Positions 15,781 to 52,453 of a stretch of DNA of 64,000 nucleotides are shown in pieces. The translations under genes were made by a program, and so were the position numbers. Numbering within the stretch: the stretch's first letter is position 1; each line of letters starts with the position of its first letter. Source of the stretch: Parcubacteria group bacterium GW2011_GWA2_43_13 (lineage in GTDB: Bacteria; Patescibacteriota; Patescibacteriia; UBA9629; GWA2-43-13). The notes under the pieces are model-generated. The model saw only the letters and a list, made by a program, of their open reading frames with translations. It was not told the origin of the DNA and made no database searches. The DNA is taken from assembly GCA_000999025.1 (NCBI GenBank), contig LCFM01000003.1:12253-76252 (forward strand), given 5' to 3'.

Positions 15781-15802
15781 AAAATTGTCATGACACTTTA
15801 TT

Positions 15803-16192: not shown

Positions 16193-16197
16193 AGATA

Positions 16198-16845: not shown

Positions 16846-16881
16846 AGTCGTTCATTCAAACACCTCCCCCTACGGTTGGCA

Positions 16882-18276
16882 TCAGCCAACCGATCCCTCC
16901 ATCTCCAACTCAATCAACCGATTCATCTCCACCGCGTACTCCAAAGGCAATTCTTTTACAATCGGCTCTATAAACCCATTCACCATCATTAAACTTGCTT
17001 CTTGCGGCGACAAACCACGGGATTGTAAATAAAACAACTGCTCTGTCCCTATTTTAGAAACCGTTGCTTCATGGCCAATAGAAACATCATCATTGTCAAT
17101 TTCCATCACCGGATAGGTGTCCGAACGCGACGCCTCATCCAAAATCAATGCATCGCACTGTACATTGGATTTTACGCCATACGCCTCCGGATGAATTTTT
17201 AATAACCCGCGATACGAAGTTCTGCCGCCATGATGACTGATGGATTTAGAAACAATATGCGAGGTAGTAAGCGGAGCCACATGCACCACTTTACCGCCCG
17301 CGTCTTGATGCTGACCTTCGCCTGCCATTGCCAAAGATAAAATATCAGCGCGCGCGCCTTTGCCCATTAAATACACAGATGGATATTTCATGGTAACTCG
17401 GCTCCCAAAATTACCATCCACCCATTCCATAGTCGCATCCTCATACGCGACTGCGCGTTTCGTCACGAGGTTGTACACATTTTTTGACCAATTCTGCACC
17501 GTGGTATACCGCACACGCGCGCCACGCAATACAATAATCTCCACCACCGCGCTGTGCAAAGATGCTGATTGATAGATAGGCGCGGTACAACCTTCCACAT
17601 AATGCACAAAACTGCCTTCATCCGCGATAATCAAGGTCCGTTCAAACTGCCCCATATTCTGCGCGTTGATGCGAAAATACGCTTGCAATGGCGTGTTGAC
17701 TTGCACTCCTGGAGGAACATACACAAAACTTCCGCCGCTCCACACCGCGCTATTTAAAGCGGCAAACTTGTTATCCCCAGAAGGAATCACGGTGCCAAAA
17801 TATTGTTTTACCAAATCAGGATGCTCTCGCATCGCGGTTTCAACATCAGAAAACACCACCCCTAAATCAACAAGCTCTTTACGCATATTATGATACACCA
17901 CTTCACTATCATACTGCGCGCCGACTCCCGCTAAAAAATCCTGCTCCATTTGCGGGATGCCTAAACGATCAAATGTTTTTTTAATATCTTTAGGCAAATC
18001 AGACCATTCTTGCGTACTTCGCTCTGTTGGTTTGAGATAATAATACATCTCATCAAAATTGATGCCTGACAAATCCGCGCCCCAATGTGGCATCTTTTTT
18101 TTACAAAACACATCATACGCATGCAGGCGATACTCCAGCATCCATTGCGGTTCATTTTTATAACGCGAAATCATTTCCACAATCGCACGAGACAACCCCT
18201 TGGGGGTTTTAAAAATATGAGCTTCAGTATCCTTAAATCCGTATTGATAATCCGGTTGTATTTGAATAAATGACAT
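16882..18276 (-). CDS. sufB: Fe-S cluster assembly protein SufB
   Basis: 464 aa with a conserved SufB C-terminus ([20 protein letters not shown]). Confidence 0.9.
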
Positions 18277-18290
18277 AATGGATATAAAAT

Positions 18291-18343
18291 ATCAATTTTC
18301 AAATGTCAAATTTGAAAACTGAAAACTGAAATTTGACATTTGG
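18291..18343. repeat. Family C tandem repeat (CTGAAAA/TTGACA heptamers), intergenic between sufC and sufB
   Basis: atcaattttcaaatgtcaaatttgaaaactgaaaactgaaatttgacatttgg. Confidence 0.8.
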
Positions 18344-19075
18344 TTACTGACTTTCTCTATACCCCATTGCTTCAACTTGTTCTGCCAACTCCTTTCCTCC
18401 ACTCTCCATAATCCTCCCCTGTTTCATAATATGCACATGCGTTGGAGTAAGATATTTCAAGATACGATTATAATGAGTAATAATCAACACGGACTTTTCA
18501 GGCGACATCCACTCATTGATGGATTGCGCAACCGCTTGCAGTGCATCAATATCCAAACCGGAATCAATCTCATCTATCACCGCAAACTTAGGATCAAGCA
18601 TTTTTAATTGCAAAATCTCTGCTTTCTTTTTTTCACCGCCTGAAAATCCTTCATTCACATTTCGATCGCTAAACTCTTCGGCAATCCCTAACGGTTGCAT
18701 CGCAGATGTAATCTCTTTTTGAAATTCAGCAACCGAACCGACTTCGGCGTGCGTGCGCTGATACGCAGTGCGCAAAAAACTGGAAAGCGATACCCCCGGA
18801 ATCTCGACAGGATACTGAAAAGCTAAAAAGACGCCCTTGCGAGCTCGCTCTTCTGGTGAAAAAGTCACAATACTTTTGCCTTCAAAAAGAATCTCCCCAT
18901 GAGTAACCTCAAACCCGGGGTTACCTGCAATCACCTGCGCAAGCGTTGATTTTCCGCTCCCATTCGGCCCCATAATCGCATGAATCTCGCCTGCGCGTAT
19001 CTCCAAAGATAGATTATGAATAATCACTTTTTGTTCCACACAAACATCCAAACCACGAACAAATACCATTGACAT
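18344..19075 (-). CDS. sufC: Fe-S cluster assembly ATPase SufC
   Basis: Walker A GPNGSGKST, ABC signature LSGGEKK, Walker B ILDEIDSGLD. Confidence 0.9.
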   Translation of the reverse strand: MSMVFVRGLDVCVEQKVIIHNLSLEIRAGEIHAIMGPNGSGKSTLAQVIAGNPGFEVTHGEILFEGKSIVTFSPEERARKGVFLAFQYPVEIPGVSLSSFLRTAYQRTHAEVGSVAEFQKEITSAMQPLGIAEEFSDRNVNEGFSGGEKKKAEILQLKMLDPKFAVIDEIDSGLDIDALQAVAQSINEWMSPEKSVLIITHYNRILKYLTPTHVHIMKQGRIMESGGKELAEQVEAMGYRESQ

Positions 19076-19213
19076 ACTGCGTATTGTACTAAATAATAAC
19101 CATACTATGTTACTCTCTCGGGCAGGGAGAGTGCTTTCTCACACAAAGGACCACAACGGGCCTATGCGAGAAAGCGTTTTTTTATTTATGATGTATTCAT
19201 CCTCATTCATCTG

Positions 19214-20383
19214 TTATCCATGTTTTCGTTTTATCCCTTCCAAACACTTTTGTACAATCTTGACTGTTTTTTTAATTTCTTTTTCTGTTGTGTATTTTGA
19301 CAATGAAAATCGAATAAATGTTTGGGCATCGTCTTCATCATATCCCAAGGTCTGAATCACATGCGATGACGTATGCGCCCCAGACGCGCATGCGGAACCA
19401 GAAGATACTGCAAGCCCTTCTGCGTCAAAACGCGTTACAAGAACATCATGGTCAATTCCTGGAAACAACATACCTAAAATATGAGGAGCGCTATCATCAG
19501 GATTGATCACTTTCACAACTCCTTTGCATTTTTTTTCAAGTTTATGTTTGAGCAATAACCGCAAATCATCAACTCGATCTGTATATTCCGCGCCCTCATC
19601 GCTCACCACCATTGCCGCGGCACCAAGCCCGACAATCCCTGAAACATTTTCTGTACCAGGACGCATTCCGTATTCCTGACTTCCTCCATATAATATGGGA
19701 TGAAACGGAATTCCTTCTTTTAAATACAGTGCGCCAACTCCTTTGGGGCCATGGATTTTATGGCCACTGATAGTTGCGCAATCAACACCCAATGTTTCAA
19801 CCCTGCAATCCATATACCCAAACGCTTGCACAATATCTGAATGAACTATTGCGGCGGCGTTTTTCTTTTTTACAATCCGCACAATATCACCAATAGGCTG
19901 AACGCTCCCGATTTCATTATTCACCATCATAACAGAAACAAGCGTTGTCTCGCGTATTACCTCGGCTGAGAGTTGTTCAAGGTCAATCATGCCAGCTTTA
20001 TCAACAGGTATCACTGATACTGCCCAGCCCTCGCGTTCAAGATATTCAGCTGACTCCAAAATAGAATGATGTTCAATAGCAGAGATAACAATATGCCTGC
20101 CTTCTGATTGCCGCGCGCGCGCAATCCCTATAATGGCCATTACATTCGCCTCTGTCGCGCCACTGGTAAAAATAACTTCCCGAGGAGCGCACCCAAACAA
20201 CAACGCAACACGCGACCGCGCCTTATCAACAGCTGATCGCGCCTCCCTGCCAATACTATGAGAAGAAGACGGATTGCCAACCATACCCTCGCAATAGGGC
20301 TTCATGGCAACGGCTACCTGTTCATCAATCATTGTTGTGGCGGCATTGTCTAAATAAATCATAGGTCTTTGGTCACAACTCAC
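19214..20383 (-). CDS. cysteine desulfurase (NifS/IscS-like class V aminotransferase)
   Basis: PLP lysine region SGHKIHGPKGVGALY and SSGSACAS active-site loop. Confidence 0.85.
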   Translation of the reverse strand: MSCDQRPMIYLDNAATTMIDEQVAVAMKPYCEGMVGNPSSSHSIGREARSAVDKARSRVALLFGCAPREVIFTSGATEANVMAIIGIARARQSEGRHIVISAIEHHSILESAEYLEREGWAVSVIPVDKAGMIDLEQLSAEVIRETTLVSVMMVNNEIGSVQPIGDIVRIVKKKNAAAIVHSDIVQAFGYMDCRVETLGVDCATISGHKIHGPKGVGALYLKEGIPFHPILYGGSQEYGMRPGTENVSGIVGLGAAAMVVSDEGAEYTDRVDDLRLLLKHKLEKKCKGVVKVINPDDSAPHILGMLFPGIDHDVLVTRFDAEGLAVSSGSACASGAHTSSHVIQTLGYDEDDAQTFIRFSLSKYTTEKEIKKTVKIVQKCLEGIKRKHG

Positions 20384-20775
20384 TACATCATCTGCTGAAG
20401 AGTTACCTTATCAAGCGCATCCCAAACCCTGCGTTCAACATGAGCCCATATATCTTTCTTCGCGCACTTCTTTTGCGAACAATCACACCCTAATCGTTTT
20501 GTGCAGTTGCGCAATGACGGCTTTACCCGCTCAACTGTTTTTACAATATCGGCAAGCGAAACAGATTCTGCCTGTTTTTTTAGATAATATCCGCCGCGCG
20601 CGCCACGCACAGAGGAGACAATTTTTTTCTTTTTCAAATCCTGAGCGATTTTTTCGCAATACTCAAACGGCAACCCGCTTTCAGCCGCAACAACCCTCAA
20701 AGAAACAGGATGGTCTTCTTTGGCAAGAGCAACAAGAAGCACAACAGCATAATGGGCTTTAGTCGAAAAAAACAT
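20383..20775 (-). CDS. Rrf2-family transcriptional regulator (IscR-like)
   Basis: Rrf2 HTH N-terminus. ATGA overlap with the downstream desulfurase gene. First gene of the suf operon. Confidence 0.75.
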   Translation of the reverse strand: MFFSTKAHYAVVLLVALAKEDHPVSLRVVAAESGLPFEYCEKIAQDLKKKKIVSSVRGARGGYYLKKQAESVSLADIVKTVERVKPSLRNCTKRLGCDCSQKKCAKKDIWAHVERRVWDALDKVTLQQMM

Positions 20776-30291: not shown

Positions 30292-30735
30292 TCATAGCAG
30301 GTTATCAAGCTCTTTTAGCACGGCATCTGCATGGCCATCCACCGTTACTGCCAGAAAAAGCTTTTTCACAATGCCGTGAGTATCAATAACACATGTCGTG
30401 CGTTCCGCCATGCCGCTTTCTTTTAACACGCCGTATAATTTCGCAATCTCGCCTTTCTCATCCGCAATCAATATAAGATCAAGATGATGGTCGGTACAAA
30501 ATGTTTTATGAGAGAGTACCCCTTGCGTTGATATGCCGATTACAACAGTATTTCTTTTTTCAAATTCTGCTTTTTTTTGAGAAAAATCAATCGCCTCCCG
30601 CGTGCACCCGGGAGTATTGTCTTTAGGATAAAAATACAGCACCACGTTTTTATTCTCAAAATCAGACAATGAAACATGTGTGCCGTCCTGATCTTCTCCA
30701 CTCCACAATGGTGCTCGTTCCTCTGCTCGAACCAT
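30292..30735 (-). CDS. bcp: peroxiredoxin (Bcp/AhpC-TSA family)
   Basis: FYPKDNTPGCTRE peroxidatic cysteine motif. Confidence 0.85.
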   Translation of the reverse strand: MVRAEERAPLWSGEDQDGTHVSLSDFENKNVVLYFYPKDNTPGCTREAIDFSQKKAEFEKRNTVVIGISTQGVLSHKTFCTDHHLDLILIADEKGEIAKLYGVLKESGMAERTTCVIDTHGIVKKLFLAVTVDGHADAVLKELDNLL

Positions 30736-30778
30736 AGGGTGAATAGTAATGTGATATCTGATAACTGACATTTAGAAT

Positions 30779-31003
30779 TTACTTCTGTGGCCAGATTTGC
30801 ATGCCACTCTCATCTTCCACAATAATCGCGTCAACAGGGCATGACTTTGCCGATTCAAGCAACTCCGCATCACTGGTTTGCGAAACCGTGTCTTTTACAA
30901 TCGCCTTGCCCTCTGAATCGAGTTCAAAGGCCAAAGGAGCAAGCGCAACGCAAGATGCGGCGCCGATGCATAAATCACGGACTACACGAACTTTGTATGA
31001 CAT
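30779..31003 (-). CDS. small single-cluster ferredoxin
   Basis: CIGAASC ... SCP ligand pattern, about 74 aa. Confidence 0.7.
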   Translation of the reverse strand: MSYKVRVVRDLCIGAASCVALAPLAFELDSEGKAIVKDTVSQTSDAELLESAKSCPVDAIIVEDESGMQIWPQK

Positions 31004-31088
31004 AGAAGGTAAAGACAAAAAACTACTACACCCCCCCTTATAAAAAACAGAATACACCCTATTTTTTATATTTACAACTGTCTATAAA

Positions 31089-33641: not shown

Positions 33642-34184
33642 GTGATTATACCGCCTCTTATCCAAAAGTCCAGAAAAAGTATATACTATACAGATATGGT
33701 TCAAGAAAAGAAAAAACTGCGCATAGGGTGGTTTACATTCAGCTGTTGCGAGGATAGCACGGTTTTGATGACTGAAATTTTAAATGACCACTGGCAGGAA
33801 TGGGCGCCATTGTTGGATATCCGCCATGCGCGGGTATTGCAAAAAGAAAATATTTTAGATTCTATGGATGTCGCGTTTGTGGAAGGCGCGCTGGCAAGCG
33901 AAGAGCATATCGAAAAACTCAAAGAAATTCGCACCCTCGCGACCAAGGTGGTTGCCGTTGGCGCGTGCGCCTGCATTGGTATGCCTTCTGGAAACAGAAA
34001 TCAGTTTGATGATCACACTCAAGAAGAAATATCATTTTTAACCGCGAGATTTAGTCATTTGCCCAAAGTGTTAAAATTAGAAGATGTCGTAGCAGTTGAT
34101 GCAAAACTCCCCGGCTGTCCCATGAATGAACAGCAATTTATTCATTTGATGAAAGCGATGTTGCAGACATTTCGTATCACCTAA
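33642..34184 (+). CDS. [NiFe]-hydrogenase small subunit (group 3-like, minimal)
   Basis: Proximal-cluster motifs FSCCEDS and VAVGACACIG; VEGALASEE matches the HoxY/MvhG/HydD-type block. An alternative start at M19 (33696) is possible. Confidence 0.65.
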   Translation: MIIPPLIQKSRKSIYYTDMVQEKKKLRIGWFTFSCCEDSTVLMTEILNDHWQEWAPLLDIRHARVLQKENILDSMDVAFVEGALASEEHIEKLKEIRTLATKVVAVGACACIGMPSGNRNQFDDHTQEEISFLTARFSHLPKVLKLEDVVAVDAKLPGCPMNEQQFIHLMKAMLQTFRIT

Positions 34185-34200
34185 ATATTGCTGTATTCCA

Positions 34201-34267
34201 AATATCAAATGTCAGTTATCAGTTTTCAAATTTGACAACTGAAAATTGACAACTGAAAACTGCCAGT
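34201..34267. repeat. Family C tandem repeat between the hydrogenase subunit genes
   Basis: aatatcaaatgtcagttatcagttttcaaatttgacaactgaaaattgacaactgaaaactgccag. Confidence 0.8.
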
Positions 34268-35599
34268 ATGCACTTAATAGACCTCGACCTCACCATTGAC
34301 GAAATGACCAAAGTAGAAGGCGCGGCATCTGTTGATGTCAAAATTCGCAGTGGCGTGGTTGAATCAGTCAAGTTCGGCATCACAGAATACAAACGATTTT
34401 ATACCCAAGCCATGCGCGGAAAATCCATCACTGCCCTGCCCCAACTATTAGCCCGAATTTGTGGCACCTGCAGTAACGCGCATTTACTGTGCAGTATTGA
34501 AGCATGCGAACACGCGCTTGGCATCACCCCATCCCCTCAAACCCAAATTCTAAAACGACTTACCATGTATGGATTAAACATCCGAGATCACGCATTACAT
34601 TTGTATCTTTTTGTTGCTCCTGACTTGCGTAATAAAGACAATTTTTTAAGTTTTGACGAGCATGATCCTATAGAACACGATATGCTCCACGATGCATTTG
34701 CCATCAAAGCCGCTGGCAATCATCTCGCCCAAATCGTCGCAGGCAGAAGCGTGCATGGCATGTATCCTGCTATTGGAGGATTTACCAAAACCCCTACGCA
34801 ACAAGAAACGCAGTCAATTATTAAGCAACTTCAAGAGGTACGGCCACGCGTATTGCGACTCATTAAAACATTTGAACAATGCGATTGGAAATTTGATCGC
34901 ACAACCAAGTATATGGGTATGTCGGCTGATCATTATTCTTTTTTAGAAGGAGTTATCATCAGCGATACTGGCCAACGGATAGAAGAACAGGACTACCACA
35001 ATCATTTGGAACATGTCGTCATCCCCTATTCTCAAGCATCTGGATACAAACACGATAATGAATGTTATATGGTTGGTGCTCTCGCGCGTGTTAATTTATC
35101 AAAGGAAAAACTGCATCCGAATACAAAAAAAGACGCAAATTCTGCTATTGCGCTCTTTCCATCAACCAATATCTATCACAATAATCTTGCACAGGCGATT
35201 GAAATTTTGCATTGCATTGATGACGCGATTGACCTGCTTAATAATACCCAATTTAAACAAGAACCCCTCCCAAAACCGGTGTTTCGCGAAGCAATGGGCA
35301 TTGGAGTTGTAGAAGCGCCGCGCGGGATGCTGTATCATCGCGTGCATATTGATGATAACGGCATTGTGATGGAAGGCGATATTGTGGTACCGACCGGACA
35401 AAATCAAATCAATATTGAACAAGATTTAAAAACCCTTATTCAGCGATTGATTGATAATGATGTTGAAAATAAACATGAAATCCAGCACGAGATGGAAAAA
35501 CTCATCCGCGCCTACGACCCCTGCATGTCCTGCGCCAGTCATTTTTTAAAAATCAATTGGATAGAAAAAAATAACATCCTTACATTCTCAAGTTTATAA
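34268..35599 (+). CDS. [NiFe]-hydrogenase large subunit (group 3-like)
   Basis: N-terminal TKVEGAAS (RIEGH-like) and RICGTCSNAH (L1), with C-terminal DPCMSCASHF (L2, DPCxxCxxH). Confidence 0.8.
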   Translation: MHLIDLDLTIDEMTKVEGAASVDVKIRSGVVESVKFGITEYKRFYTQAMRGKSITALPQLLARICGTCSNAHLLCSIEACEHALGITPSPQTQILKRLTMYGLNIRDHALHLYLFVAPDLRNKDNFLSFDEHDPIEHDMLHDAFAIKAAGNHLAQIVAGRSVHGMYPAIGGFTKTPTQQETQSIIKQLQEVRPRVLRLIKTFEQCDWKFDRTTKYMGMSADHYSFLEGVIISDTGQRIEEQDYHNHLEHVVIPYSQASGYKHDNECYMVGALARVNLSKEKLHPNTKKDANSAIALFPSTNIYHNNLAQAIEILHCIDDAIDLLNNTQFKQEPLPKPVFREAMGIGVVEAPRGMLYHRVHIDDNGIVMEGDIVVPTGQNQINIEQDLKTLIQRLIDNDVENKHEIQHEMEKLIRAYDPCMSCASHFLKINWIEKNNILTFSSL

Positions 35600-35963
35600 G
35601 GATATTATTAATAGATTCTGCTATATCATTGACATCCATTCCTCCCGTCGGTACACCAATAATGGTGATTTTTTTTATTGTACCAAGTTTTTTCAGCCAT
35701 TTCAGATTTGCGACGACATCAAAATCATGCAAAGAAACAAGTGGCGTTTGTTCTATTTTTTCAAGATCATTAAATACCATCACCCCATCAATGCCTTGTA
35801 CCGTATCAATCATCACAAAATGTTCTGGAATCTCGCCCCATTCTTCATTAGGATCAAGATGAACAAAGTCGAAATTGGGAACTTGTTTTTTGAGTTGCGG
35901 CATGAGCTTGACAGGCAACGAATCTTCCTCAATATCTGGATTACCAAAGATGAATATTTTCAT
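35580..35963 (-). CDS. hydrogenase maturation endopeptidase (HycI/HoxW family)
   Basis: MKIFIFGNPDIEEDSLP N-terminus and a conserved D/H pattern. The 3' ends overlap convergently by about 20 nt with the large-subunit gene. Confidence 0.7.
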   Translation of the reverse strand: MKIFIFGNPDIEEDSLPVKLMPQLKKQVPNFDFVHLDPNEEWGEIPEHFVMIDTVQGIDGVMVFNDLEKIEQTPLVSLHDFDVVANLKWLKKLGTIKKITIIGVPTGGMDVNDIAESINNILINLRM

Positions 35964-35992: not shown

Positions 35993-37672
35993 TCACACTG
36001 TCCGGTTCGCCAGCGCCAAATGCATGTTAGTAAAGCGCGCTAAATTTGCGACTTGCCGCGCATGCAACCTCTCGCATGGCAAATCCCAGTGCATGGAAAT
36101 CCAATCACCTATAGCCGCATCATCCATTGACCCATCATCAGCCAAATGACGCCTGATAACGCGTTGCTCAACCGTAGCAAGATACAACTTCGCGCCATCA
36201 AACCGAATCGGCTGGCGCTCAACTGTAATTACTGGTCCGTCAATCGCAATCACTTTCCCCCAGCTAATCCTACAAGAATCAATACTCTCCACAGTATGCG
36301 GCTCCTCTTTATGCCCCATCCTCTGCCAGATGTTCATCACCTGAAACGAATGGTGCATTTTTGCCCCGCCAGATATTTTATCCTCAATATATCCAAAATA
36401 CTTACTACCAAACCGATCTTTTACTTTGAGTGTATCTTTCAAGTGGATATACATATCCTGCTTGGATGGTGTATCCAAAAGCTCATTTCCAACCCAATAC
36501 GCTTCAACCACTTTTTCATGCAAAGGGTCGGAAAGATGATTGGCGTCAGCAATGGCTTTTAAATAGGGATACATCACTTCAAACTGTGACAACAAATACC
36601 GCAGACCATAGTCCGCGGTGTTTTCGCCAAGATACGCCAACATCTCGCCCGATTTATCTGGTCCGCAAAAGTGCAATCTGTTCGGTGAAAACGCGTATCG
36701 CGCGCAACGAATAATCCCCTGCTCTTGAGATAGTAATTGAGGTGAGACCATAGAAACCATCGTCTCCCTCTCCTTTATTAAGGAGAGGGCTGGGGTGAGA
36801 TTTTTTTGTCGTGATGACATCACAAATACACCTGCTCCAGCCACAAGCAATATCATCGGAACAATCAATGCGCTTGGCCATTGTCCTGTTGTGATGTTTT
36901 GCAGTACAACCGTAATCGGAAACGCCAACACTAACACTGTTGATACAAACGAAGCGGATAATTTTTTTAATCCCGTATACCAACACGCAACATACCCACA
37001 CAACACCATACCTGTCACCAATGCCCAACCCACCTGCTCCCATGTTTGAGGAATCAACGCTTGTCCGCTCCCTTGAGCAATACTGTAAACAATCAAAAGC
37101 ACCGCACCAAACGCCATCCGTGCCCAAGCTCCAACCAGAGCCGGAATATTCTGCAATATTTTTTTTGCAATGATCGTCTCAATTGCCCATAAAATCGTAG
37201 CCCCCAATGCAAGAAAAAATCCTATTCCCCAGTCCCATCCCTTTAGGCCGCCTAACATCACCACGCCTATCATCATCACCACTATCCCAAGCCATTGCAA
37301 TCTACTCACCTTTTCTTTCAAGTAAACGGCAGACATAACAGCAACCCACACAAATAGGGTTTTATGAATAAACGCGGCTTGCGTTGCCGGCACCAACGTC
37401 AAACTCTTGAAAAATAAGACAAATGGCACAGAACCGCCAATCACACCGATTACAACAAGGTTGATCCATTGCTTCTTATTTAACAATTTCAATACTCGCC
37501 ATTGGGCAACCGCGCCCACCAACCCTGCCAGCAAACATGCGGCAATGATATTTTTTGTTGTTGTATACGCTACCGCATCAGACCAACTTCCCACACCAAA
37601 TTTATTGATAAACACCGCCACGCCACTGATAAGCGCTGTAATAAAGGGTAAAATAAATACATTATTTTTCAT
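35993..37672 (-). CDS. continuous ORF: N-terminal DMT/EamA-type transporter (about 37672-36800) joined in frame, through family B element 36758-36818, to a 255-aa unknown soluble domain (internal SD+ATG at 36760)
   Basis: Ten hydrophobic helices typical of EamA. The element reads AAGGAGAGGGAGACG-ATGGTTTCT on the coding strand. These are likely two genes, or a fusion created by the element. Confidence 0.5.
   Translation of the reverse strand: MKNNVFILPFITALISGVAVFINKFGVGSWSDAVAYTTTKNIIAACLLAGLVGAVAQWRVLKLLNKKQWINLVVIGVIGGSVPFVLFFKSLTLVPATQAAFIHKTLFVWVAVMSAVYLKEKVSRLQWLGIVVMMIGVVMLGGLKGWDWGIGFFLALGATILWAIETIIAKKILQNIPALVGAWARMAFGAVLLIVYSIAQGSGQALIPQTWEQVGWALVTGMVLCGYVACWYTGLKKLSASFVSTVLVLAFPITVVLQNITTGQWPSALIVPMILLVAGAGVFVMSSRQKNLTPALSLIKERETMVSMVSPQLLSQEQGIIRCARYAFSPNRLHFCGPDKSGEMLAYLGENTADYGLRYLLSQFEVMYPYLKAIADANHLSDPLHEKVVEAYWVGNELLDTPSKQDMYIHLKDTLKVKDRFGSKYFGYIEDKISGGAKMHHSFQVMNIWQRMGHKEEPHTVESIDSCRISWGKVIAIDGPVITVERQPIRFDGAKLYLATVEQRVIRRHLADDGSMDDAAIGDWISMHWDLPCERLHARQVANLARFTNMHLALANRTV
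36758..36818 (-). repeat. Family B element (reverse orientation relative to the 3035 copy)
   Basis: The reverse complement reads CTCACCCCAGCCCTCTCCTTAATAAAGGAGAGGGAGACGATGG. Confidence 0.8.
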
Positions 37673-38353: not shown

Positions 38354-39577
38354 ATGCAAAACTACGATTACATCATTATCGGTGGTGGAGTGGCAGGTAC
38401 GGTTGCCGCAGAAACCATTCGGCAGAATGATACAAACGGGACAATCGCCATTATCTCGGATGAACCATACCCGTTTTACTCCCGCATCATGCTATCAAAG
38501 CCAAACTTTTTTTTAGGCAAAATGTCGTTTGAGTCAATTTTCCGGCATGATAAGCAATGGTATATTCAAAACAATATAGATTTAAAAAATAGTATCAGGG
38601 CAACTACTCTCAATACTGATACAAAAAAGGTTACACTCAATACTAACGAATCCCTTACATACAACAAACTCCTCCTTGCCCTTGGCGTCTGCGCCCGAAC
38701 ATTAGGACTCCCAAACGAAACGATAAGCGGTGTCTATTGCGTTCGCACGCTTGATGATGCAAAAGGCATCATGAAAACCATAAAAACGGCAAAAAAAGCC
38801 GTTGTTGTTGGCGCTGGATTTATTGGGTTTGAAATGTGCGATATTCTCAAACTCGCTGGCCTTGATGTTACCCTCATTATCCGCGAGCCATTCTTTTGGG
38901 GACACCTCTTACATAACAAGGCCGGAAGTATTATAGAAAAAGCAATAACTGAAAAAGGAGTAACTATCATAAAAGAAGATGAAGTCGCAACTATTGAAGG
39001 CGCGGAAATAGTAACTGGTATCACAACAAAAAAGCAGGTCCATCTTAATGCAGATCTCCTTGCGATTGGTGTTGGATCCGTATGTCCTAAAGATATCCTT
39101 TTACAAAAAACAATGGAAACAAGAAATGGCATTATTGTGAACGAATATCTTGAAACCAATATGCCTGATATATGGGCCGCTGGTGATTGCGCTGAATATT
39201 TTGATACTATTTTGGATGAATATATCCAAATGGGAAACTGGGCAAATGCGCAATTGCAAGGAAAAATTGCCGGCCTCAATATGACTGGCACAAAAACTGC
39301 TTTTAGCGCCGTAACTAATTATACGTGTAGCGGATTTGGGCTTTCAATCGCTTTTGTAGGAGATGTAAAAAGCGGAGAAGGTAAAGAGTTAATAGAACGT
39401 ATGCCAGACGACACACATTCGTATGGCCACTTTATTCTTAAAGATAACCGCATTATTGGCGCGGCGCTCATTAACAGAACATCAGAACTGAATACCATTA
39501 CTACATTGATACAAAACAAAATTGATATTTCAAATAAAAAAGAACTCCTTGTATCAGGAGATATTGCAATATCGTAG
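38354..39577 (+). CDS. FAD-dependent pyridine nucleotide-disulfide oxidoreductase (NADH oxidase / rubredoxin reductase-like)
   Basis: Two Rossmann motifs (IIGGGVAGTVAAE and VVVGAGFIGFEM). The stop TAG is part of the family A hairpin. Confidence 0.75.
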   Translation: MQNYDYIIIGGGVAGTVAAETIRQNDTNGTIAIISDEPYPFYSRIMLSKPNFFLGKMSFESIFRHDKQWYIQNNIDLKNSIRATTLNTDTKKVTLNTNESLTYNKLLLALGVCARTLGLPNETISGVYCVRTLDDAKGIMKTIKTAKKAVVVGAGFIGFEMCDILKLAGLDVTLIIREPFFWGHLLHNKAGSIIEKAITEKGVTIIKEDEVATIEGAEIVTGITTKKQVHLNADLLAIGVGSVCPKDILLQKTMETRNGIIVNEYLETNMPDIWAAGDCAEYFDTILDEYIQMGNWANAQLQGKIAGLNMTGTKTAFSAVTNYTCSGFGLSIAFVGDVKSGEGKELIERMPDDTHSYGHFILKDNRIIGAALINRTSELNTITTLIQNKIDISNKKELLVSGDIAIS

Positions 39578-46936: not shown

Positions 46937-49900
46937 CTATGATGATCGTCGTGATAATACCTTATCAACTTCAGCAAGCACCTTCTGTGGATCAATATCG
47001 GATGCTCCTATTCGCCTACCATTTTCTTCAACAAAATGAGAACTTTTATATTCATCAGCCCATGCCTTATTGTAGGTACTCCCCCCTTGTTTGTAAATTC
47101 CCCGCGCTACAGGATGCAAAACTCTTCTCGTCGCAGGACCAGACCATGTGATGGGGTTTCCAAGAATCATCATAATATTTGGTGTGCCATACATTGAAGA
47201 AATATGGCCAATACCAGTATCCGGGGTAATAGTCATATCAGCAATATGAACAAGTACGCCGATACTCCCAAGGTCTTCTTTCGCCCGAGTAATATGATAA
47301 CCCTTATCACGAATCAGGCGATCCACCAGTCCTTCACTATACATACTCACCCGTTCTGGCCGAGTATCGTCGAGAAATACAATATGTGCATCAGGATACT
47401 TAGTGCAAATCCCGTCAAAAACCTTTTCCCATTGATCAGGATGATATTCCTTAGGCATAACAGACGAACCTGCAGAAACCACAATCACACGCTCTCCTGA
47501 TTGGATATTATACTTATCTCTTAACGCTTGTTCTCGTTGCGGGAAGTCATGACCTGGTTCCCAATAACGCTCTATTTTATTGATATTGTCAAATAACTTT
47601 TGTCCAAACATCACTTCAAAATTTCTCAAAATACGAGCAGGAAGCATATCATATCGAGTAATTCCTTTAGACACTGCTTTCTCATATACCGTATCTCTCC
47701 TCCTGCGAGGAGCTTCTTCAAGCCGCCAACTCGCATAGTCAATAGACATAACCCGAGAAGAATCAGTAATATCATTTTCACTCAACCCTAATATGTCATA
47801 GCTCTCAAAATTCTTATCAGCGTTTATGAGAAATCGCTCTTTACGCCCCTCCCACACAAAAAATTGTTTCATGCCACCAACTCCATATACTGAAACACCA
47901 GGAAACTGATTTTCCAATGGCTTCATTAAAGAAACCTGATTATTAGCAACAAAGACACGAATTGGCTTTCCTGAAATATTATTCCGTTTCATATATTCAT
48001 GCAACGCCATAATCATAGGCGTTGTAAGTACTGCGTCGCCAATAGGATGATCTAATATAACAACAATTTCTTCAGCGCGCTCAATGCCAGCAATAAGAGG
48101 GCTACGATCATAATATTCCTGTTCAAATGGACGCAATCCGATCCGTGTTTCTTCTAAATAAATATTTTCTATTTGATAATGGATTCGCCGTAACTCTTGT
48201 TGCACGAATGCATCCAAAGAATTATTTTTACCATATTGCTTGTTATATTTCTCAAGTTCTTTTTCATATTTCTGCCGCTGTACTGCCGAAATCGTTGAAA
48301 TCTGTTGCAACTCATGATATCTCTTTATTAAATAATCATATCTCCCCTTCAAACGAGAATCTGCAGCAAACCGCTCAAAGAACTTCTCACTTTCTGTGAG
48401 TGAATGACGGTACACTGCCATATCTGTATAATGTTTTTTCACTTCTCCACGATAATAATCAGGGGTCCGTTCAGGTCCATCTGGAGTTGGTTGCCGAGGT
48501 GGCATAGATGGCCCTCCACGCAACGGTGCGGCTTTGAGTTGGTTGCGTTTCCAGAATGGGAGCGCCCATGGCGACTCAACTGGCCCGCCCGGTGCAGGGG
48601 GCATGATGAGCGGGTTATGTATTGTCGCTTCTATCAACTGCTTTGTCATGTCATTGCCGATTGTAGTAGCTAATGCATGCCCATCTAACCGAATCTCCAT
48701 AAATTTCACCGGATGATGAAGATAATGCAAACTCTGCTCTGTGGTAAACAGTTTTGCGATTTCAGGCGGAAGTGTCAAACGGCCGTCAGGACTTGCGCCG
48801 TCAACTAAAATACTTAACCCCTTTTTATTTAATTCATCTGTCGGAAAAATCGCAAGTTGTAAGTGTTTTAATAATGACCCTTCACTATTCCACTGCCGCA
48901 ACTGATCCCGCAAATGTTCTAATTTGGAATCAAAACTTCCGTCCGGATTTCTGCCAAATTTGTCAAACGCATTTTCCGCGTTTTTCATCAAATTATTGGC
49001 AATGCCTCGAATGTCAAAATAGACCTTTCCATCTGCGGATTTATGCACATACCCCATTTGCTGTTTGCCTTCAAATTCAATCAAGCGATTAAAGAAATTA
49101 CTAAACCGCTTGCCGGGCTCATCATGCCAATCAGCGCGCGCATGTTTATCCAGCATGTCTTTCACATAGTCCATCGGATCAACCACCTTGCTTTCTTTTG
49201 TAATAACATCTTCCATGTTAAATCCATGCTCTTTGAGTTGCGAGATAGTATCTTCGGTCAAACTTCCATCCGGGTTGAAATGCAAATTTTCAAAAATCAC
49301 TTTGCCTTTTTCATTTACCAAATCAAATCCATCTCCTTTGCTATCGGGAATAATATTCATCCCGTCCGGTATTTTTACATTCACATCCTCTGCCCCGGGC
49401 AAATCAACATGCACATCATGAAACCCGGGACGGGGCGCTAACTCTTTAGCATGCTCTGCCACCTCGCCTGCGGCGCCTCCGGCGCCTTGCGCAACCTCAT
49501 GCGCCACGCCAGCGCCTCTTTCACCACTGCCGGTCATGTGATGCCACAACGCCTCAATATAACTGTCAGTTTTCGGCGCATGGCCAACTGCCTCTAATCC
49601 CTTAAACCATGCAAACTGCCCAACCGTTCCGGCTAACCCGCCTACTGCCACGCCAGCCAGCCCTGCGATAACTGCCTGGCCTCTTTTATACCTATCAAAT
49701 GCTTTATCATTCTCTTGGATATTTGAAACCAATGCATTCTTGCGATTATTAAAACGATTCAGAATTTCTACTGGGAGGTTATCATCATCTTCGAATCCAA
49801 ATTTTTTACGTACATCGCGCAATCGAATTTTTACATCAGTCATTGCAATTTCTTTTGTTTTATGCGGAAGGCCATACTGCACACCAATTAAATCAACTGA

Positions 49901-52453
49901 TTTTTTTTGCTCAACCTGAATCCGCGCCATAATATCTGCGACATAATCACGATCAGCATCAGCTAAACTACTTTGCGCATAAATCGCATCAAGTCGAGGA
50001 ATAACTGTTTCCGCTTTAATATGATCGTAATGAAACCGCTCAAGCGCTTTACGCTGGCGATCATTGGCCACTGTTTCCGCTCCAAGCGTTGATTGCCTTA
50101 TCGCAAGCCCGCGATCATATTTCAAATCCCTCATCCTGCGCATTGCCACAAACGCTCCACCGACTGCCATACTTGCAAGCAAAGGTGCCCAGGCAGGAGC
50201 CGTACTTGCAACGGTTGCAATAAATCCAGCAGTCGCAACTGCTTTTGCGCCGCGTCGAAACAAAGCATTGCCGACAAATCCACCTAATACGCCATATGCA
50301 ACTGGATTCGCAAGCACTTTACCGGCATGCTTCCCTAATACAGGAATATTTTCAACAAAATCAACATATTTTTCAAACCGAGTCAGAACCTCTTTAGGCT
50401 TATTATCATACAAATCACGCTGTTTTAATCCGAGCTGAATATCTAATGCCATTTCACGACGCAGATGAGTGAGAACCTTTTCCTCTTCTCCAGGATATTG
50501 TTCTGTAAGCTCTTGAATCCGTGCGCGGTATTCTTGCGCCAATTCCCAAAAATTATTTGCAAACAACAGCCCCCTTGCCTCGCGCTCGCGCGTTGCATCA
50601 TCTGAATAATTCTTTCCATGCAACAATGGTAATAATTGATGTTCAAGTTCCTCATCAAACGCTTGTCGCGTCATGGGATGCATGGCATGACGATAAAATA
50701 AATCAGCCGACACACTATTAATAGTTGCATTATCAGAAACGACCGCGCCTTTTTCATTTTGTTGGTTGATTTCTTCTGCAAATTGACGAATGACTGCGTC
50801 CAACACCTGATACGAAATATCTTGGCTTCCCGCATCAATCTGAATATTACTGTCGCCGCGAACTTTTGCTTCGATTTGTGTAAGTAAATTCTTATTACTT
50901 TGAATTGCGCTTAACGCCTCTTGATAGAATTTAATCAAATACCCTTTCTCGCTTGACCGTACCCACCAGCGTTTCACCATATTAGAATTATCAAGTAAGA
51001 CACGAAGTTTTTCTTCTGCCTCGCGCCATGCGTAGGCCTTTGCGATTTCTGACACATCAATAAGATACGCTTTCTTTTTGCCCAACGGCTGTGGTTGACG
51101 ACGTTCCGGAGTTGGCGTTGGAGTTTGCTCGGTTGGAGGTGTTGGAGTAGGTGCTGGGGTCGGGGACTGAGTTGGTACTGGCGCGGGCGATGTCGCAACT
51201 CTCGGCCGCGGAGTTGCGAGTAAATATTTCCAATGTTTGTGAGGTGTAATGGCTAAAAGGTTGAATGTTTTAGGATCCAACTGCACATGCCCAGCGGCGT
51301 CAACTGTCCCCAGCTGTTTTAGCGTATCAAGCATGACTTGTATATTATGCACATGACTTTGCCATACGCTGTCAACTAATGTTTGTATTTCCGGGGATGA
51401 CCGGGCCATGGTGCGCAAACTTGGATGCCCACCAGAAGCTTGAGCCAAGTAATCATAGATACCGTTTTCCTGCGTCAAAAGCGTTAAGAGCTGATCAAGC
51501 GATATATGGTTTGAATAGGTGTATGCTAACACTTCTTCTTTCCCCCACTTGGCAATATGTTCAAATACAATACGACCAACATGCGAGGAAATAACATCAC
51601 GTATTGTCTTATCAGGAAGTGCCTGCCACCAATCTACAATATTCCAATCCTCCGGTACCTGTGCATTCGGATCACCTATTTTTTTACGAATATTTTCAAC
51701 TTCATTTTGAATACCCCAGTGATCAATATGCTCAGGGAACATTGCTGAATTTGCCCGATGCCGCCATTCATGGCTTTGAATAGTAGCACCAGAAAGAGCA
51801 CCTGTTGTTGATCCATCTACAACAATGATACATCCTCGTAAATCAGGAGCATTCTTTGTAATGCGTGGATCACTATAGGAAAGAAATGCAGCGAGCCCGC
51901 CACTCCCAATAATAGTAATGTAATCGCGCTTATCATAAAAGGTAATATTGATGGTCGAAGGCGTAGGGCTTGTAATGTCAACATCGCCATATAATGACGT
52001 TTCAAAAATATCTGATGCCCATTGTTTGGGATCAGACATCATTTTTTGTGTCCGAAGTACAGCTGCGCATTGATCCACCACTAACCGCACTCGTTGTTCA
52101 ACAAGTTTTCGTTGATAAGTGGTTAATTTATCCATCTGTTCAGGAACCAATACCTCTCTCTCAACTTCTTGATACGTAATAGTCCCTGTCGGTCCGCCAC
52201 TGGGATTATTTTGACGAAACCCTTCAATCACCTCTATGGCATGATCAACAATCCCTGCCATAACCTTATATTCCACAACTAACTCATCGCGCGTATTTTT
52301 ATCAACACGATCTCTACGCGACGGCTCTCCCGGCGCAACAGCCACTAATAGTTGATTGCGGTACTCAGCCAAATCATAATTTGGCGTGGTATCTTGTGAG
52401 TGCGATGAGTCATCCGCTCTACTGATACCAATATACTCTCTTGTTTCTCCCAT
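46937..52453 (-). CDS. giant multidomain protein (1838 aa): membrane-anchored, Pro/Thr-rich linker, HExxH-containing N-region, and a C-terminal GT9 (heptosyltransferase-like) glycosyltransferase domain
   Basis: C-terminus VVILDHPIGDAVLTTP ... IADMTITPDTGIGHISSMYGTPNIMMILGNP matches ADP-heptose:LPS heptosyltransferase (GT9) motifs. Also an HEWRH motif, a PTPAPTPTPP linker and two hydrophobic segments. Confidence 0.7.
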   Translation of the reverse strand: MGETREYIGISRADDSSHSQDTTPNYDLAEYRNQLLVAVAPGEPSRRDRVDKNTRDELVVEYKVMAGIVDHAIEVIEGFRQNNPSGGPTGTITYQEVEREVLVPEQMDKLTTYQRKLVEQRVRLVVDQCAAVLRTQKMMSDPKQWASDIFETSLYGDVDITSPTPSTINITFYDKRDYITIIGSGGLAAFLSYSDPRITKNAPDLRGCIIVVDGSTTGALSGATIQSHEWRHRANSAMFPEHIDHWGIQNEVENIRKKIGDPNAQVPEDWNIVDWWQALPDKTIRDVISSHVGRIVFEHIAKWGKEEVLAYTYSNHISLDQLLTLLTQENGIYDYLAQASGGHPSLRTMARSSPEIQTLVDSVWQSHVHNIQVMLDTLKQLGTVDAAGHVQLDPKTFNLLAITPHKHWKYLLATPRPRVATSPAPVPTQSPTPAPTPTPPTEQTPTPTPERRQPQPLGKKKAYLIDVSEIAKAYAWREAEEKLRVLLDNSNMVKRWWVRSSEKGYLIKFYQEALSAIQSNKNLLTQIEAKVRGDSNIQIDAGSQDISYQVLDAVIRQFAEEINQQNEKGAVVSDNATINSVSADLFYRHAMHPMTRQAFDEELEHQLLPLLHGKNYSDDATREREARGLLFANNFWELAQEYRARIQELTEQYPGEEEKVLTHLRREMALDIQLGLKQRDLYDNKPKEVLTRFEKYVDFVENIPVLGKHAGKVLANPVAYGVLGGFVGNALFRRGAKAVATAGFIATVASTAPAWAPLLASMAVGGAFVAMRRMRDLKYDRGLAIRQSTLGAETVANDRQRKALERFHYDHIKAETVIPRLDAIYAQSSLADADRDYVADIMARIQVEQKKSVDLIGVQYGLPHKTKEIAMTDVKIRLRDVRKKFGFEDDDNLPVEILNRFNNRKNALVSNIQENDKAFDRYKRGQAVIAGLAGVAVGGLAGTVGQFAWFKGLEAVGHAPKTDSYIEALWHHMTGSGERGAGVAHEVAQGAGGAAGEVAEHAKELAPRPGFHDVHVDLPGAEDVNVKIPDGMNIIPDSKGDGFDLVNEKGKVIFENLHFNPDGSLTEDTISQLKEHGFNMEDVITKESKVVDPMDYVKDMLDKHARADWHDEPGKRFSNFFNRLIEFEGKQQMGYVHKSADGKVYFDIRGIANNLMKNAENAFDKFGRNPDGSFDSKLEHLRDQLRQWNSEGSLLKHLQLAIFPTDELNKKGLSILVDGASPDGRLTLPPEIAKLFTTEQSLHYLHHPVKFMEIRLDGHALATTIGNDMTKQLIEATIHNPLIMPPAPGGPVESPWALPFWKRNQLKAAPLRGGPSMPPRQPTPDGPERTPDYYRGEVKKHYTDMAVYRHSLTESEKFFERFAADSRLKGRYDYLIKRYHELQQISTISAVQRQKYEKELEKYNKQYGKNNSLDAFVQQELRRIHYQIENIYLEETRIGLRPFEQEYYDRSPLIAGIERAEEIVVILDHPIGDAVLTTPMIMALHEYMKRNNISGKPIRVFVANNQVSLMKPLENQFPGVSVYGVGGMKQFFVWEGRKERFLINADKNFESYDILGLSENDITDSSRVMSIDYASWRLEEAPRRRRDTVYEKAVSKGITRYDMLPARILRNFEVMFGQKLFDNINKIERYWEPGHDFPQREQALRDKYNIQSGERVIVVSAGSSVMPKEYHPDQWEKVFDGICTKYPDAHIVFLDDTRPERVSMYSEGLVDRLIRDKGYHITRAKEDLGSIGVLVHIADMTITPDTGIGHISSMYGTPNIMMILGNPITWSGPATRRVLHPVARGIYKQGGSTYNKAWADEYKSSHFVEENGRRIGASDIDPQKVLAEVDKVLSRRSS

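What the first reader, a model, noticed from the sequence alone, without database searches (positions are those of the whole stretch)
33642..35963. Minimal two-subunit group-3-like [NiFe] hydrogenase with convergently overlapping maturation protease
Only small and large subunit genes are present. The large subunit has L1 RICGTCSNAH, L2 DPCMSCASHF and an N-terminal RIEGH-like TKVEGAAS. The small subunit has an unusual adjacent-Cys proximal motif FSCCEDS, not CxGC. No diaphorase or sulfur-reductase subunits are adjacent. A family C repeat separates the two genes. The HycI-like protease gene overlaps the large-subunit 3' end by about 20 nt on the opposite strand. No electron-transfer partner is encoded nearby. 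The nearest candidates are the FAD oxidoreductase at 38354 and the ferredoxin at 30779.
Basis: partly seen in the sequence, partly recalled or inferred. Interest (0 to 1): 0.5.

Follow-up and report, generated by a model that had tools for sequence, protein, structure and literature searches.

The report
CPR "hyd2" [NiFe] hydrogenase gene module
This is a real but already described kind of small nickel-iron hydrogenase found only in tiny Patescibacteria (CPR) bacteria; comparison with 80 related genomes suggests it works with a neighbouring ferredoxin, a flavin reductase and dedicated maturation genes, not alone.

Summary
The sequence observations hold. There is a 162-aa small subunit (true start probably 33696), a 443-aa large subunit with intact L1/L2 nickel-binding motifs, an 83-nt palindromic repeat between them, and a convergent ORF overlapping the large-subunit 3' end by 20 nt. 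That ORF folds as a HybD/HycI endopeptidase.

The locus comes from a Candidatus Jacksonbacteria genome. It belongs to the CPR-specific "hyd2" clade of group-3b-related hydrogenases, which Jaffe et al. 2020 described with a truncated small subunit, no beta/gamma subunits and uncertain function. The core finding is therefore not new.

The claim that no electron-transfer partner is nearby is not supported. In 43 species-level loci with full flanks, a single-cluster ferredoxin plus an FAD ferredoxin:NAD(P) reductase lies within 10 kb in 24-26. In 18 it sits directly upstream in the same operon. Both genes are in this window (30779-31006, 38354-39577).

The endopeptidase (43/43), DUF6390 (36/43) and an EamA transporter (27/43) are also linked. 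DUF6390 has a HypC-like C-terminal domain.

The small subunit replaces the proximal CxxC with a conserved CCED motif.

Most likely function: a cytoplasmic hydrogenase coupling H2 to NAD(P) through ferredoxin and the reductase. This wiring is inferred, not shown.

The parts
30779..31006 (-). Single-cluster ferredoxin, 74 aa from the ATG at 31006. Cys pattern CIGAASC...CP, three Cys. Candidate electron carrier.
   Evidence: Pfam Fer4_15/Fer4_13. Closest solved relative is Pyrococcus furiosus ferredoxin, E 5e-9, with Ala at the Asp14 position. Homologues lie next to the FAD reductase in 24/43 hyd2 loci.
33696..34184 (+). [NiFe] hydrogenase small subunit, 162 aa. It has the proximal-cluster domain only, with CCED in place of CxxC. 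No Tat signal.
   Evidence: Oxidored_q6. It matches only residues 2-154 of the 261-residue HydD model. Best PDB hit is sulfhydrogenase 1 delta. Conserved C17, C18, D20, C91, C141.
34185..34267 (.). 83-nt spacer made of a dispersed palindromic repeat that can form a hairpin. Relatives have a spacer of about 3-5 nt here.
   Evidence: RNA fold -19.5 kcal/mol and spacer distribution in relatives. The same 83-nt gap is present in three independent assemblies.
34268..35599 (+). [NiFe] hydrogenase large subunit, 443 aa, with L1 and L2 intact. An 18-residue C-terminal extension follows His425.
   Evidence: NiFeSe_Hases. ShyA 243 bits and HydA 219 bits, both below cut-off. PDB ranking 3b > 3c > 3d > 3a. 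Invariant Cys65, 68, 419, 422.
35580..35963 (-). Hydrogenase maturation endopeptidase (HybD/HycI fold), 127 aa. Convergent with the large subunit, with a 20-nt 3' overlap.
   Evidence: AF2 model pLDDT 88. The top 7 PDB fold hits are all hydrogenase maturation endopeptidases or a close structural homologue (3pu6, deposited as uncharacterized), E 1.5e-5 to 9e-4. Invariant D14, D53, H79. Pfam HycI is only sub-threshold. Present in 43/43 loci.
35993..36757 (-). DUF6390 domain, the C-terminal half of the fusion protein. It has a helical N-domain plus a HypC-like OB domain (about 35996-36274). Candidate maturation chaperone.
36773..37672 (-). EamA (DMT) transporter domain, fused here to DUF6390 in one 559-aa ORF (35993-37672).
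   Evidence: PF00892. It is a separate adjacent gene in relatives. The fusion is present in three independent assemblies. Linked in 27/43 loci.
38354..39577 (+). FAD-dependent ferredoxin/rubredoxin:NAD(P)+ reductase, 407 aa. Candidate NAD(P) module.
   Evidence: Pyr_redox_2 + Rubredoxin_C. Best solved relatives are ferredoxin, putidaredoxin and rubredoxin reductases. Within 10 kb in 26/43 loci and directly upstream on the same strand in 18. The gene overlaps the small-subunit start by 8 nt in L006.

Best explanation
The locus encodes a functional, cytoplasmic [NiFe] hydrogenase of the Patescibacteria-specific 'hyd2' clade, which is related to group 3b.

Proposed mechanism. H2 is split or formed at the Ni-Fe site of the large subunit. 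Electrons pass through the single, unusually ligated proximal Fe-S cluster of the 162-aa small subunit. They then go to a small single-cluster ferredoxin, and from there to an FAD-dependent ferredoxin:NAD(P)+ reductase. The enzyme system as a whole would therefore interconvert H2 and NAD(P)H. The ferredoxin-reductase pair would replace the beta/gamma (group 3b) or HoxFU (group 3d) modules.

Maturation. The convergent HybD/HycI-type endopeptidase would trim the large subunit's C-terminal extension. The EamA-DUF6390 protein would take part through its HypC-like domain, which may handle the Fe cofactor or the pre-large subunit. What the transporter carries is unknown.

Shown here: the identity of all parts, their conservation and their linkage.

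Inferred: the electron path, the direction of catalysis and the roles of DUF6390 and EamA.
For: Active site and family. L1 and L2 Cys pairs are invariant. The large subunit is closest to group 3b. There are more than 3500 homologues, and the nearest named ones are Patescibacteria at 59-87% identity. At least 584 matching stretches occur among the GTDB species genomes. The clade is described.

Single-cluster small subunit.

Partner linkage. The Fdx-FdR pair is always adjacent to each other. It is within 10 kb in 24-26 of 43 fully flanked loci and directly upstream on the same strand in 18, with overlapping stop and start in L006. It persists through three different arrangements. One locus has a non-homologous FNR-type reductase plus a Fer4_15 ferredoxin instead. 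The reductase family is ferredoxin/putidaredoxin/rubredoxin reductases. The ferredoxin resembles P. furiosus Fd.

Maturation. The endopeptidase fold and metal-ligand triad are present. DUF6390 has a HypC-like domain with conserved Cys and His. It occurs in hydrogenase clusters of unrelated bacteria.
Against: No experiment exists. Gene linkage is not proof of electron transfer.

In 17 of 43 loci no Fdx or FdR lies within 10 kb. In this window the three units are dispersed and on different strands, so they are not one operon.

NADH to H2 is thermodynamically uphill except at low H2. The ferredoxin's cluster type, and therefore its potential, is only guessed from the motif.

Canonical hypA-F genes are absent from the window. 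They were found next to hyd2 in only 1 of 80 loci. Whether the genome can build the Fe(CN)2CO centre is therefore untested.

One actinobacterial DUF6390 locus has no hydrogenase within 8 kb.
Confidence: 0.6

Rival explanations
1. Ferredoxin-dependent hydrogenase. The small ferredoxin is the only physiological partner, for example disposing of electrons from pyruvate:ferredoxin oxidoreductase as H2. The FAD reductase is then an independent ferredoxin:NAD(P) balancing enzyme rather than part of the hydrogenase chain.
For: The ferredoxin is closest to the P. furiosus ferredoxin, a general low-potential carrier. H2 evolution from reduced ferredoxin is thermodynamically easier than from NAD(P)H (established knowledge). 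Jaffe et al. note pyruvate:ferredoxin oxidoreductase in some CPR.
Against: The ferredoxin is always adjacent to the reductase and on the same strand (24/24). The pair is usually in the hydrogenase operon, with the reductase gene abutting the small-subunit gene. No PFOR gene was seen in the locus.
Confidence: 0.2
2. A truly stand-alone two-subunit enzyme. The partner would be unknown, encoded elsewhere or supplied by the host, and the neighbouring redox genes would be coincidental synteny.
For: 17 of 43 loci show no Fdx or FdR within 10 kb. The genes in this window are dispersed. Jaffe et al. left the partners open.
Against: Linkage persists through at least three gene orders and across many Patescibacteria lineages. 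A single-cluster small subunit needs a docking redox partner, as in HoxY of group 3d (established knowledge).
Confidence: 0.15
3. A non-catalytic relic or H2 sensor, or a sulfhydrogenase like canonical group 3b.
For: No hyp genes in the window. The proximal-cluster motif is atypical. The best HMM hits are named sulfhydrogenase.
Against: Large subunits are 59-87% identical across the phylum, with invariant metal ligands and a dedicated endopeptidase in 43/43 loci. This argues for strong purifying selection on a matured enzyme. The beta/gamma sulfur-reductase subunits are absent. No sensor kinase or regulator is linked.
Confidence: 0.05

Closest known systems
[quoted passage not shown] 2020, BMC Biol 18:69, PMC7304191)
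   Same: Patescibacteria origin. Large subunit related to group 3b. Small subunit truncated to about 164 aa (162 here). No beta/gamma subunits. A PF07992 flavoprotein and an Fe-S protein lie nearby in some genomes.
   Different: Nothing essential; this locus is a member. Not reported in that paper, as far as the passages read show: the operonic Fdx-FdR arrangement, the opposite-strand endopeptidase/DUF6390/EamA trio, and the CCED motif. The paper's context plots counted only same-strand families.
Group 3b sulfhydrogenase SHI/SHII of Pyrococcus and Thermococcus (HydADBG; PDB 9nez, 9e15, 5yxy)
   Same: Best sequence relatives of both subunits. Cytoplasmic. L1/L2 motifs. Processed by a HybD-type protease.
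   Different: SHI is an alpha-beta-gamma-delta tetramer. Its delta subunit is 261 aa and extends about 100 residues beyond the proximal-cluster domain that hyd2 retains. Its beta/gamma subunits are related to AsrAB. Here the small subunit lacks the C-terminal domain, has CCED instead of CYGC, and beta/gamma are absent. NCBIfam equivalog cut-offs are missed by a wide margin (243 vs 700 bits).
Group 3d NAD-reducing hydrogenase HoxFUYH (PDB 5xf9) and Acetomicrobium mobile NiFe-HydABCSL (PDB 7t2r)
   Same: A short small subunit of about 180 aa carrying only the proximal cluster, which hands electrons to an NAD(P)-linked flavoprotein module.
   Different: Those use NuoE/F/G-like FMN diaphorase subunits. 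None is present here. The proposed module here is a free ferredoxin plus a putidaredoxin-reductase-type FAD enzyme.
Complex I subunit NuoB (cluster N2) and group 4 small subunits (HycG)
   Same: Short Oxidored_q6 protein with a single cluster. The tandem Cys-Cys aligns with the NuoB SCC motif.
   Different: The large subunit is not group 4 or NuoD-like. There are no membrane subunits. C18 is Ser in 5 of 78 species while D20 is nearly invariant, so the fourth ligand may be Asp rather than the second Cys.
Ferredoxin + ferredoxin reductase chains of class I P450 and ring-hydroxylating dioxygenase systems (putidaredoxin reductase 1q1r, BphA4 1d7y, ArR 3lxd)
   Same: The same reductase family and a small adjacent ferredoxin gene.
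   Different: The terminal enzyme would be a hydrogenase rather than an oxygenase. The ferredoxin is a Fer4_15 [3Fe/4Fe] type, not a 2Fe-2S type.
HypC/HybG/HupF chaperones and HybD/HycI endopeptidases
   Same: The DUF6390 C-terminal domain superposes on HypC with the Cys and His in register. The 127-aa ORF has the HybD fold and the Asp/Asp/His triad.
   Different: The HypC-like Cys is internal (residue 162 of the domain), not N-terminal, and is preceded by a 150-residue helical domain with no solved relative. The endopeptidase is 20-30 residues shorter than HybD/HycI and fails the Pfam threshold.

Membership tests
[NiFe] hydrogenase large subunit (PF00374) | N-terminal RxCGxCxxxH and C-terminal DPCxxCxxH motifs providing four Cys ligands | tested here: met
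   RICGTCSNAH and DPCMSCASH are present and invariant in 23 relatives. PF00374 scores 101 bits against a cut-off of 25.8.
CPR hyd2 clade (Jaffe 2020) | Small subunit truncated to about 164 aa; no beta/gamma subunits near; CPR host | tested here: met
   162 aa. No beta/gamma subunits. An identical protein is named Candidatus Jacksonbacteria. Clade definition.
CPR hyd2 clade (Jaffe 2020) | Placement inside the hyd2 branch of a large-subunit tree | not tested
   No tree was built with the paper's reference set. The only proxy is 59-87% identity to the nearest homologues, whose named members are Patescibacteria with the same architecture.
Group 3b sulfhydrogenase (HydADBG/ShyABCD) | Heterotetramer with AsrAB-like beta and gamma subunits | tested here: not met
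   No such genes in the window region 28-42 kb. None was detected in the 80 related loci with the queries used.
Group 3b sulfhydrogenase (HydADBG/ShyABCD) | Equivalog-level similarity of alpha and delta subunits | tested here: not met
   ShyA 243 bits vs cut-off 700. HydA 219 vs 880. HydD 55 vs 500.
Group 3b sulfhydrogenase (HydADBG/ShyABCD) | Full-length delta subunit (proximal-cluster domain plus C-terminal Fe-S cluster domain) with a proximal CxxC motif | tested here: not met
   Only the N-terminal domain is present, matching positions 2-154 of the 261-position model. CCED replaces CYGC.
Group 3d (HoxFUYH) | NuoE/F/G-like diaphorase module HoxFU | tested here: not met
   phmmer with E. coli NuoE and NuoF found nothing in the window or the loci.
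Group 4 energy-converting hydrogenases | NuoD/HycE-like large subunit with membrane subunits | tested here: not met
   No group 4 chain is among the PDB hits at E<=1e-5. E. coli HycE gives only marginal hits of 21-26 bits to the related loci's large subunits. No NuoH/L-like genes are nearby.
HybD/HycI hydrogenase maturation endopeptidase (PF01750) | Characteristic alpha/beta fold | tested here: met
   The top 7 Foldseek PDB hits are HybD, HycI and homologues, prob 1.00, TM 0.56-0.70. The next hit has E 0.02.
HybD/HycI hydrogenase maturation endopeptidase (PF01750) | Acidic/Asp/His metal-binding triad (Glu16, Asp62, His93 in E. coli HybD) | tested here: inconclusive
   D14, D53 and H79 are invariant in 49 sequences and lie in the expected motifs GNxxxxD, IDT and HDFD. 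Residue-by-residue structural superposition was not inspected.
HybD/HycI hydrogenase maturation endopeptidase (PF01750) | Pfam gathering score | tested here: not met
   14.3 bits against a cut-off of 23. The profile search against PDB sequences was not significant. Three family members at about 50% identity do carry PF01750.
HypC/HupF chaperone (PF01455), for the DUF6390 C-terminal domain | OB-fold with essential Cys and conserved His | tested here: met
HypC/HupF chaperone (PF01455), for the DUF6390 C-terminal domain | The Cys is the N-terminal residue of the mature protein | tested here: not met
   The Cys is preceded by about 160 residues of DUF6390, and by about 465 in the fusion protein. 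BLASTP against E. coli HypC finds nothing.

The most novel reading that the evidence does not exclude
hyd2 could be a distinct, uncharacterised subgroup of group 3 [NiFe] hydrogenases with its own wiring and its own maturation route.

Wiring: a single Cys3-Asp or tandem-Cys cluster hands electrons to a free ferredoxin and a putidaredoxin-reductase-type flavoprotein.

Maturation: DUF6390 would act as a HypC-like Fe-cofactor chaperone tied to an EamA transporter. In some lineages a bona fide HydG and a HypC-HydE fusion sit beside the [NiFe] genes. Radical-SAM chemistry of the [FeFe] type might therefore supply CO and CN to a [NiFe] site in organisms that lack HypDEF.
Probability: 0.3. Interest if true: 0.75.

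Novelty: already known. Interest (0 to 1): 0.4.

Why it matters
Patescibacteria have tiny genomes and no respiratory chain, and how they balance redox is an open question. A hydrogenase found in several hundred species-level genomes is probably a main outlet or inlet for reducing power.

The clade was described in 2020 with its function called uncertain. The comparative evidence here turns that into a concrete three-component system: HydSL, ferredoxin and FAD reductase. This can be expressed and assayed.

The analysis also assigns a likely hydrogenase-maturation role to DUF6390, a Pfam family of unknown function. That family also occurs in actinobacterial hydrogenase clusters. The window's own locus adds no new kind of system.

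Tried and rejected
1. Sequence-only proof of the protease. The Pfam HycI hit is sub-threshold (E 0.0065-0.14). A 27-sequence profile against all PDB sequences was not significant, with HybD at E 0.75 among noise. Only the predicted fold settled it.

3. Canonical maturation genes. phmmer with E. coli HypA-F, HycI and HycH found no Hyp protein in the window. hypCDE lies beside hyd2 in only 1 of 80 loci. The rest of the genome could not be searched.

4. Diaphorase, polyferredoxin or beta/gamma subunits were not found.

5. Group 4 affiliation was rejected on large-subunit similarity ranking, despite the NuoB-like CC motif.

6. Peroxiredoxin (30292-30771) as part of the module was rejected. No homologue appears in any of the related loci.

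7. The EamA-DUF6390 fusion as a sequencing frameshift was rejected. An identical 559-aa gene occurs in three independent assemblies.

8. My first small-subunit query was one base out of frame. It was corrected.

9. The AFDB fold library was unavailable. HydDB could not be run.

10. A literature search for DUF6390 returned zero papers. Searches for hyd2 follow-up work found only the 2020 paper.
Full report
**What is in the sequence**

Between 33.6 and 36.0 kb the window carries two co-directional ORFs and one convergent ORF.

The first ORF is 33642-34184. Relatives and three independent public gene calls start it at ATG 33696, giving 162 aa. It matches only Oxidored_q6, and only the first 154 of 261 positions of the sulfhydrogenase delta model.

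The second ORF is 34268-35599, 443 aa, and matches NiFeSe_Hases. The four Cys are invariant in 23 aligned relatives.

The third ORF is 35580-35963 from its ATG, on the minus strand. It overlaps the large-subunit 3' end by 20 nt.

The 83-nt spacer between the two subunit genes is a palindromic repeat. It has other copies at 18292-18343 (90% over 52 nt), 56503-56537 and elsewhere. The core 14-mer occurs 10 times against 0.87 expected. It can fold into a hairpin of -19.5 kcal/mol. In relatives the two genes are typically 3-5 nt apart. All sequence-level observations are therefore confirmed.

**What organism and family**

The 127-aa convergent protein is 100% identical to a protein of Candidatus Jacksonbacteria bacterium RIFCSPLOWO2_02_FULL. 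The same 20-kb gene order occurs in three independent assemblies.

The large subunit has more than 3500 homologues. The nearest 120 are 59-87% identical, and those that carry a source name are Patescibacteria. A scan of one genome per GTDB species found at least 584 relatives.

By similarity the large subunit ranks group 3b first. Sulfhydrogenase alpha scores 201 bits, then 3c MvhA at 166, the A. mobile enzyme at 151, 3d HoxH at 120 and 3a at about 105. No group 4 chain appears. Every NCBIfam equivalog cut-off is missed by a wide margin.

This is exactly the 'hyd2' clade that Jaffe et al. (2020, PMC7304191) defined. It is CPR-specific and related to 3b on a long branch. [quoted passage not shown] It has no beta/gamma subunits, some PF07992 proteins and an Fe-S family nearby, and 'its function remains uncertain'. 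No later paper on it was found in the library. The core of the finding is therefore already published.

**The partner question**

I fetched 80 species-representative loci with up to 10 kb of flank and searched their six-frame ORFs with the window's proteins.

Among the 43 loci with at least 5 kb on both sides:
- the endopeptidase-like ORF is present in 43, always on the opposite strand
- DUF6390 is present in 36
- EamA is present in 27
- the Pyr_redox_2 flavoprotein is present in 26
- a small ferredoxin is present in 24, and all 24 lie next to the flavoprotein on the same strand

In 18 loci the order is fdx, reductase, small subunit, large subunit on one strand. In a Sungbacteria genome the reductase gene overlaps the small-subunit start by 8 nt. 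In 5 loci the pair lies beyond EamA on the other strand.

In the Jacksonbacteria lineage, meaning this window and its 79%-identical relative, the pair is split. The ferredoxin is 2.6 kb upstream and the reductase 2.8 kb downstream. One distant locus has a non-homologous FNR-type reductase with the same kind of ferredoxin.

The reductase belongs with ferredoxin, putidaredoxin and rubredoxin reductases. The ferredoxin is closest to the P. furiosus ferredoxin, with CIGAASC...CP. That gives three Cys and an Ala where Pyrococcus has Asp14. From established knowledge of such motifs this suggests a [3Fe-4S] or incompletely Cys-ligated [4Fe-4S] cluster.

No NuoE/F-type diaphorase or polyferredoxin was found anywhere.

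**The small subunit**

Conserved cysteines are C17 (78/78), C18 (73/78, Ser in the other 5), C91 (81/81) and C141 (82/82). C93 is variable.

HMMER aligns FSCCED with the TSCYGC of P. furiosus HydD. In that register C17 is the first canonical ligand, and D20 (77/78 conserved) sits where the second Cys should be. MAFFT places the CC pair on the tandem CC of E. coli NuoB.

Either reading makes the proximal cluster non-canonical. It is Cys3-Asp, or tandem-Cys as in complex I cluster N2. The Ser variants favour Asp as the ligand. This is inference.

Short, single-cluster small subunits are normal in group 3d HoxY and in the A. mobile enzyme, both of which appear among the hits. The truncation itself is therefore a known design for docking onto a separate redox module.

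**The endopeptidase**

Sequence evidence alone is weak. Pfam HycI scores 14 bits against a cut-off of 23. It is the top or only hit in three orthologues, and a profile search of PDB sequences is not significant.

An AlphaFold2 model built from 49 homologues has pLDDT 88. Its top seven PDB matches are E. coli HybD, T. kodakarensis HybD, a thaumarchaeal homologue, E. coli HycI and a Wolinella protein deposited as uncharacterized (3pu6). E-values run from 1.5e-5 to 9e-4, and the next hit is at 0.02.

D14, D53 and H79 are invariant within the motifs GNxDxxxD, IDT and HDFD. This fits the acidic/Asp/His metal site of HybD. Three family members pass PF01750 outright.

The convergent 3' overlap with the large subunit recurs in 40 of 70 loci, at 6-83 nt with a mode of 20-41 nt. 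It covers the poorly conserved C-terminal extension that the protease would remove. I read it as genome compaction. An antisense effect is possible but untested.

**DUF6390 and EamA**

The ORF 35993-37672 fuses an EamA transporter to a DUF6390 domain. In relatives these are two adjacent, overlapping genes. The fusion is real.

DUF6390 appears in no paper in the library. Its model is confident, with pLDDT 92 and pTM 0.91. It consists of a helical N-domain of about 150 residues with no solved relative, followed by an OB-fold.

Outside Patescibacteria, DUF6390 follows HypC in a long-form [NiFe] hydrogenase cluster that also has HycI, HypA and a cobW-family (HypB-like) gene, on a 2.6-Mb contig. 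In another genome the order is HypC-EamA-DUF6390 beside a hyd2-like pair. One actinobacterial locus shows no hydrogenase within 8 kb.

I conclude that DUF6390 is a hydrogenase accessory protein with a HypC-like domain. Its exact role, and the substrate of EamA, are unknown.

**Maturation machinery**

No HypA-F homologue is in the window. Canonical hypCDE abuts hyd2 in one locus, L029.

Unexpectedly, locus L083 has two [FeFe]-type maturase genes right after the hyd2 genes and the endopeptidase. One is a bona fide HydG, scoring 562 bits on TIGR03955 against a cut-off of 312, with the CX2CX22C motif. The other is a HypC-HydE fusion, scoring 287 bits on TIGR03956 (cut-off 254.6) and 49.5 on hypC_hupF (cut-off 48). 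L061 has the same fusion.

In metagenome contigs the HypC-HydE/HydG pair again sits beside [NiFe] genes in three of the contigs that extend far enough. No paper was found describing this. None of this is in the window, but it bears on how these enzymes obtain their CO and CN ligands.

**Verdict**

The object is a member of an already described clade.

The most likely mechanism is an H2/NAD(P)H-interconverting system of HydSL, ferredoxin and FAD reductase (confidence about 0.6). Its main rival is ferredoxin-only coupling.

What is new here, and only as computational inference:
- the operonic Fdx-FdR wiring
- the conserved CCED proximal motif
- the HypC-like nature and hydrogenase linkage of DUF6390
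- the HydG/HypC-HydE neighbours in some relatives

Noticed in passing
L083:11815-14846 (also L093, L061:2-541, L096, L098): A bona fide [FeFe]-type maturase HydG and a HypC-HydE fusion protein lie directly beside hyd2 or other group-3 [NiFe] hydrogenase genes, in two species-level genomes and three metagenome contigs. No [FeFe] hydrogenase was seen on these contigs. No literature was found.
   Followed up: partly
window 13818-13852, 14765-14840, 15355-15378, 18292-18343, 34198-34251, 56503-56537: A dispersed palindromic repeat built of TTGACAA/CTGAAAA-like heptamers. Three copies lie in frame inside the SUF genes sufU and sufS, each encoding a 'CQLSN(V/I)K'-like peptide in what look like variable loops. 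This recalls the in-frame Rickettsia palindromic elements. Other copies sit between sufB and sufC and between the two hydrogenase genes.
   Followed up: partly
L083:11340-11777 and homologues in 9 further loci (e.g. L073, L075, L084): A 145-aa ORF with no Pfam match lies immediately downstream of the large subunit on the same strand. It occurs mostly in loci that lack DUF6390. Its N-terminus (RYAFWP) and C-terminus (GELVFTH) look like a miniature DUF6390.
   Followed up: no
L089:1-8750: DUF6390 follows HypC at the end of a long-form [NiFe] hydrogenase cluster on a 2.6-Mb non-CPR contig. The cluster has a 602-aa large subunit, NifU/Rieske, DUF5947, DUF6084, HycI, HypA and a cobW-family (HypB-like) gene. 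The family is therefore not CPR-specific.
   Followed up: partly
window 1-64000: Nearly all genes are on the minus strand and GC skew is negative throughout, with cumulative skew falling monotonically to -5.5. The hydrogenase pair and the FAD reductase are among the few plus-strand genes. The 34-36 kb segment has the second-lowest GC of the window's 2-kb bins (0.40).
   Followed up: no
window 13593-20775: A complete SUF Fe-S assembly operon with an Rrf2 regulator, a second cysteine desulfurase and a Rieske protein lies 13 kb from the hydrogenase. The genes are sufC, sufB, sufD, Rieske, sufS and sufU.
   Followed up: partly
window 46937-52453: A single 1838-aa ORF on the minus strand. It was not examined.
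   Followed up: no
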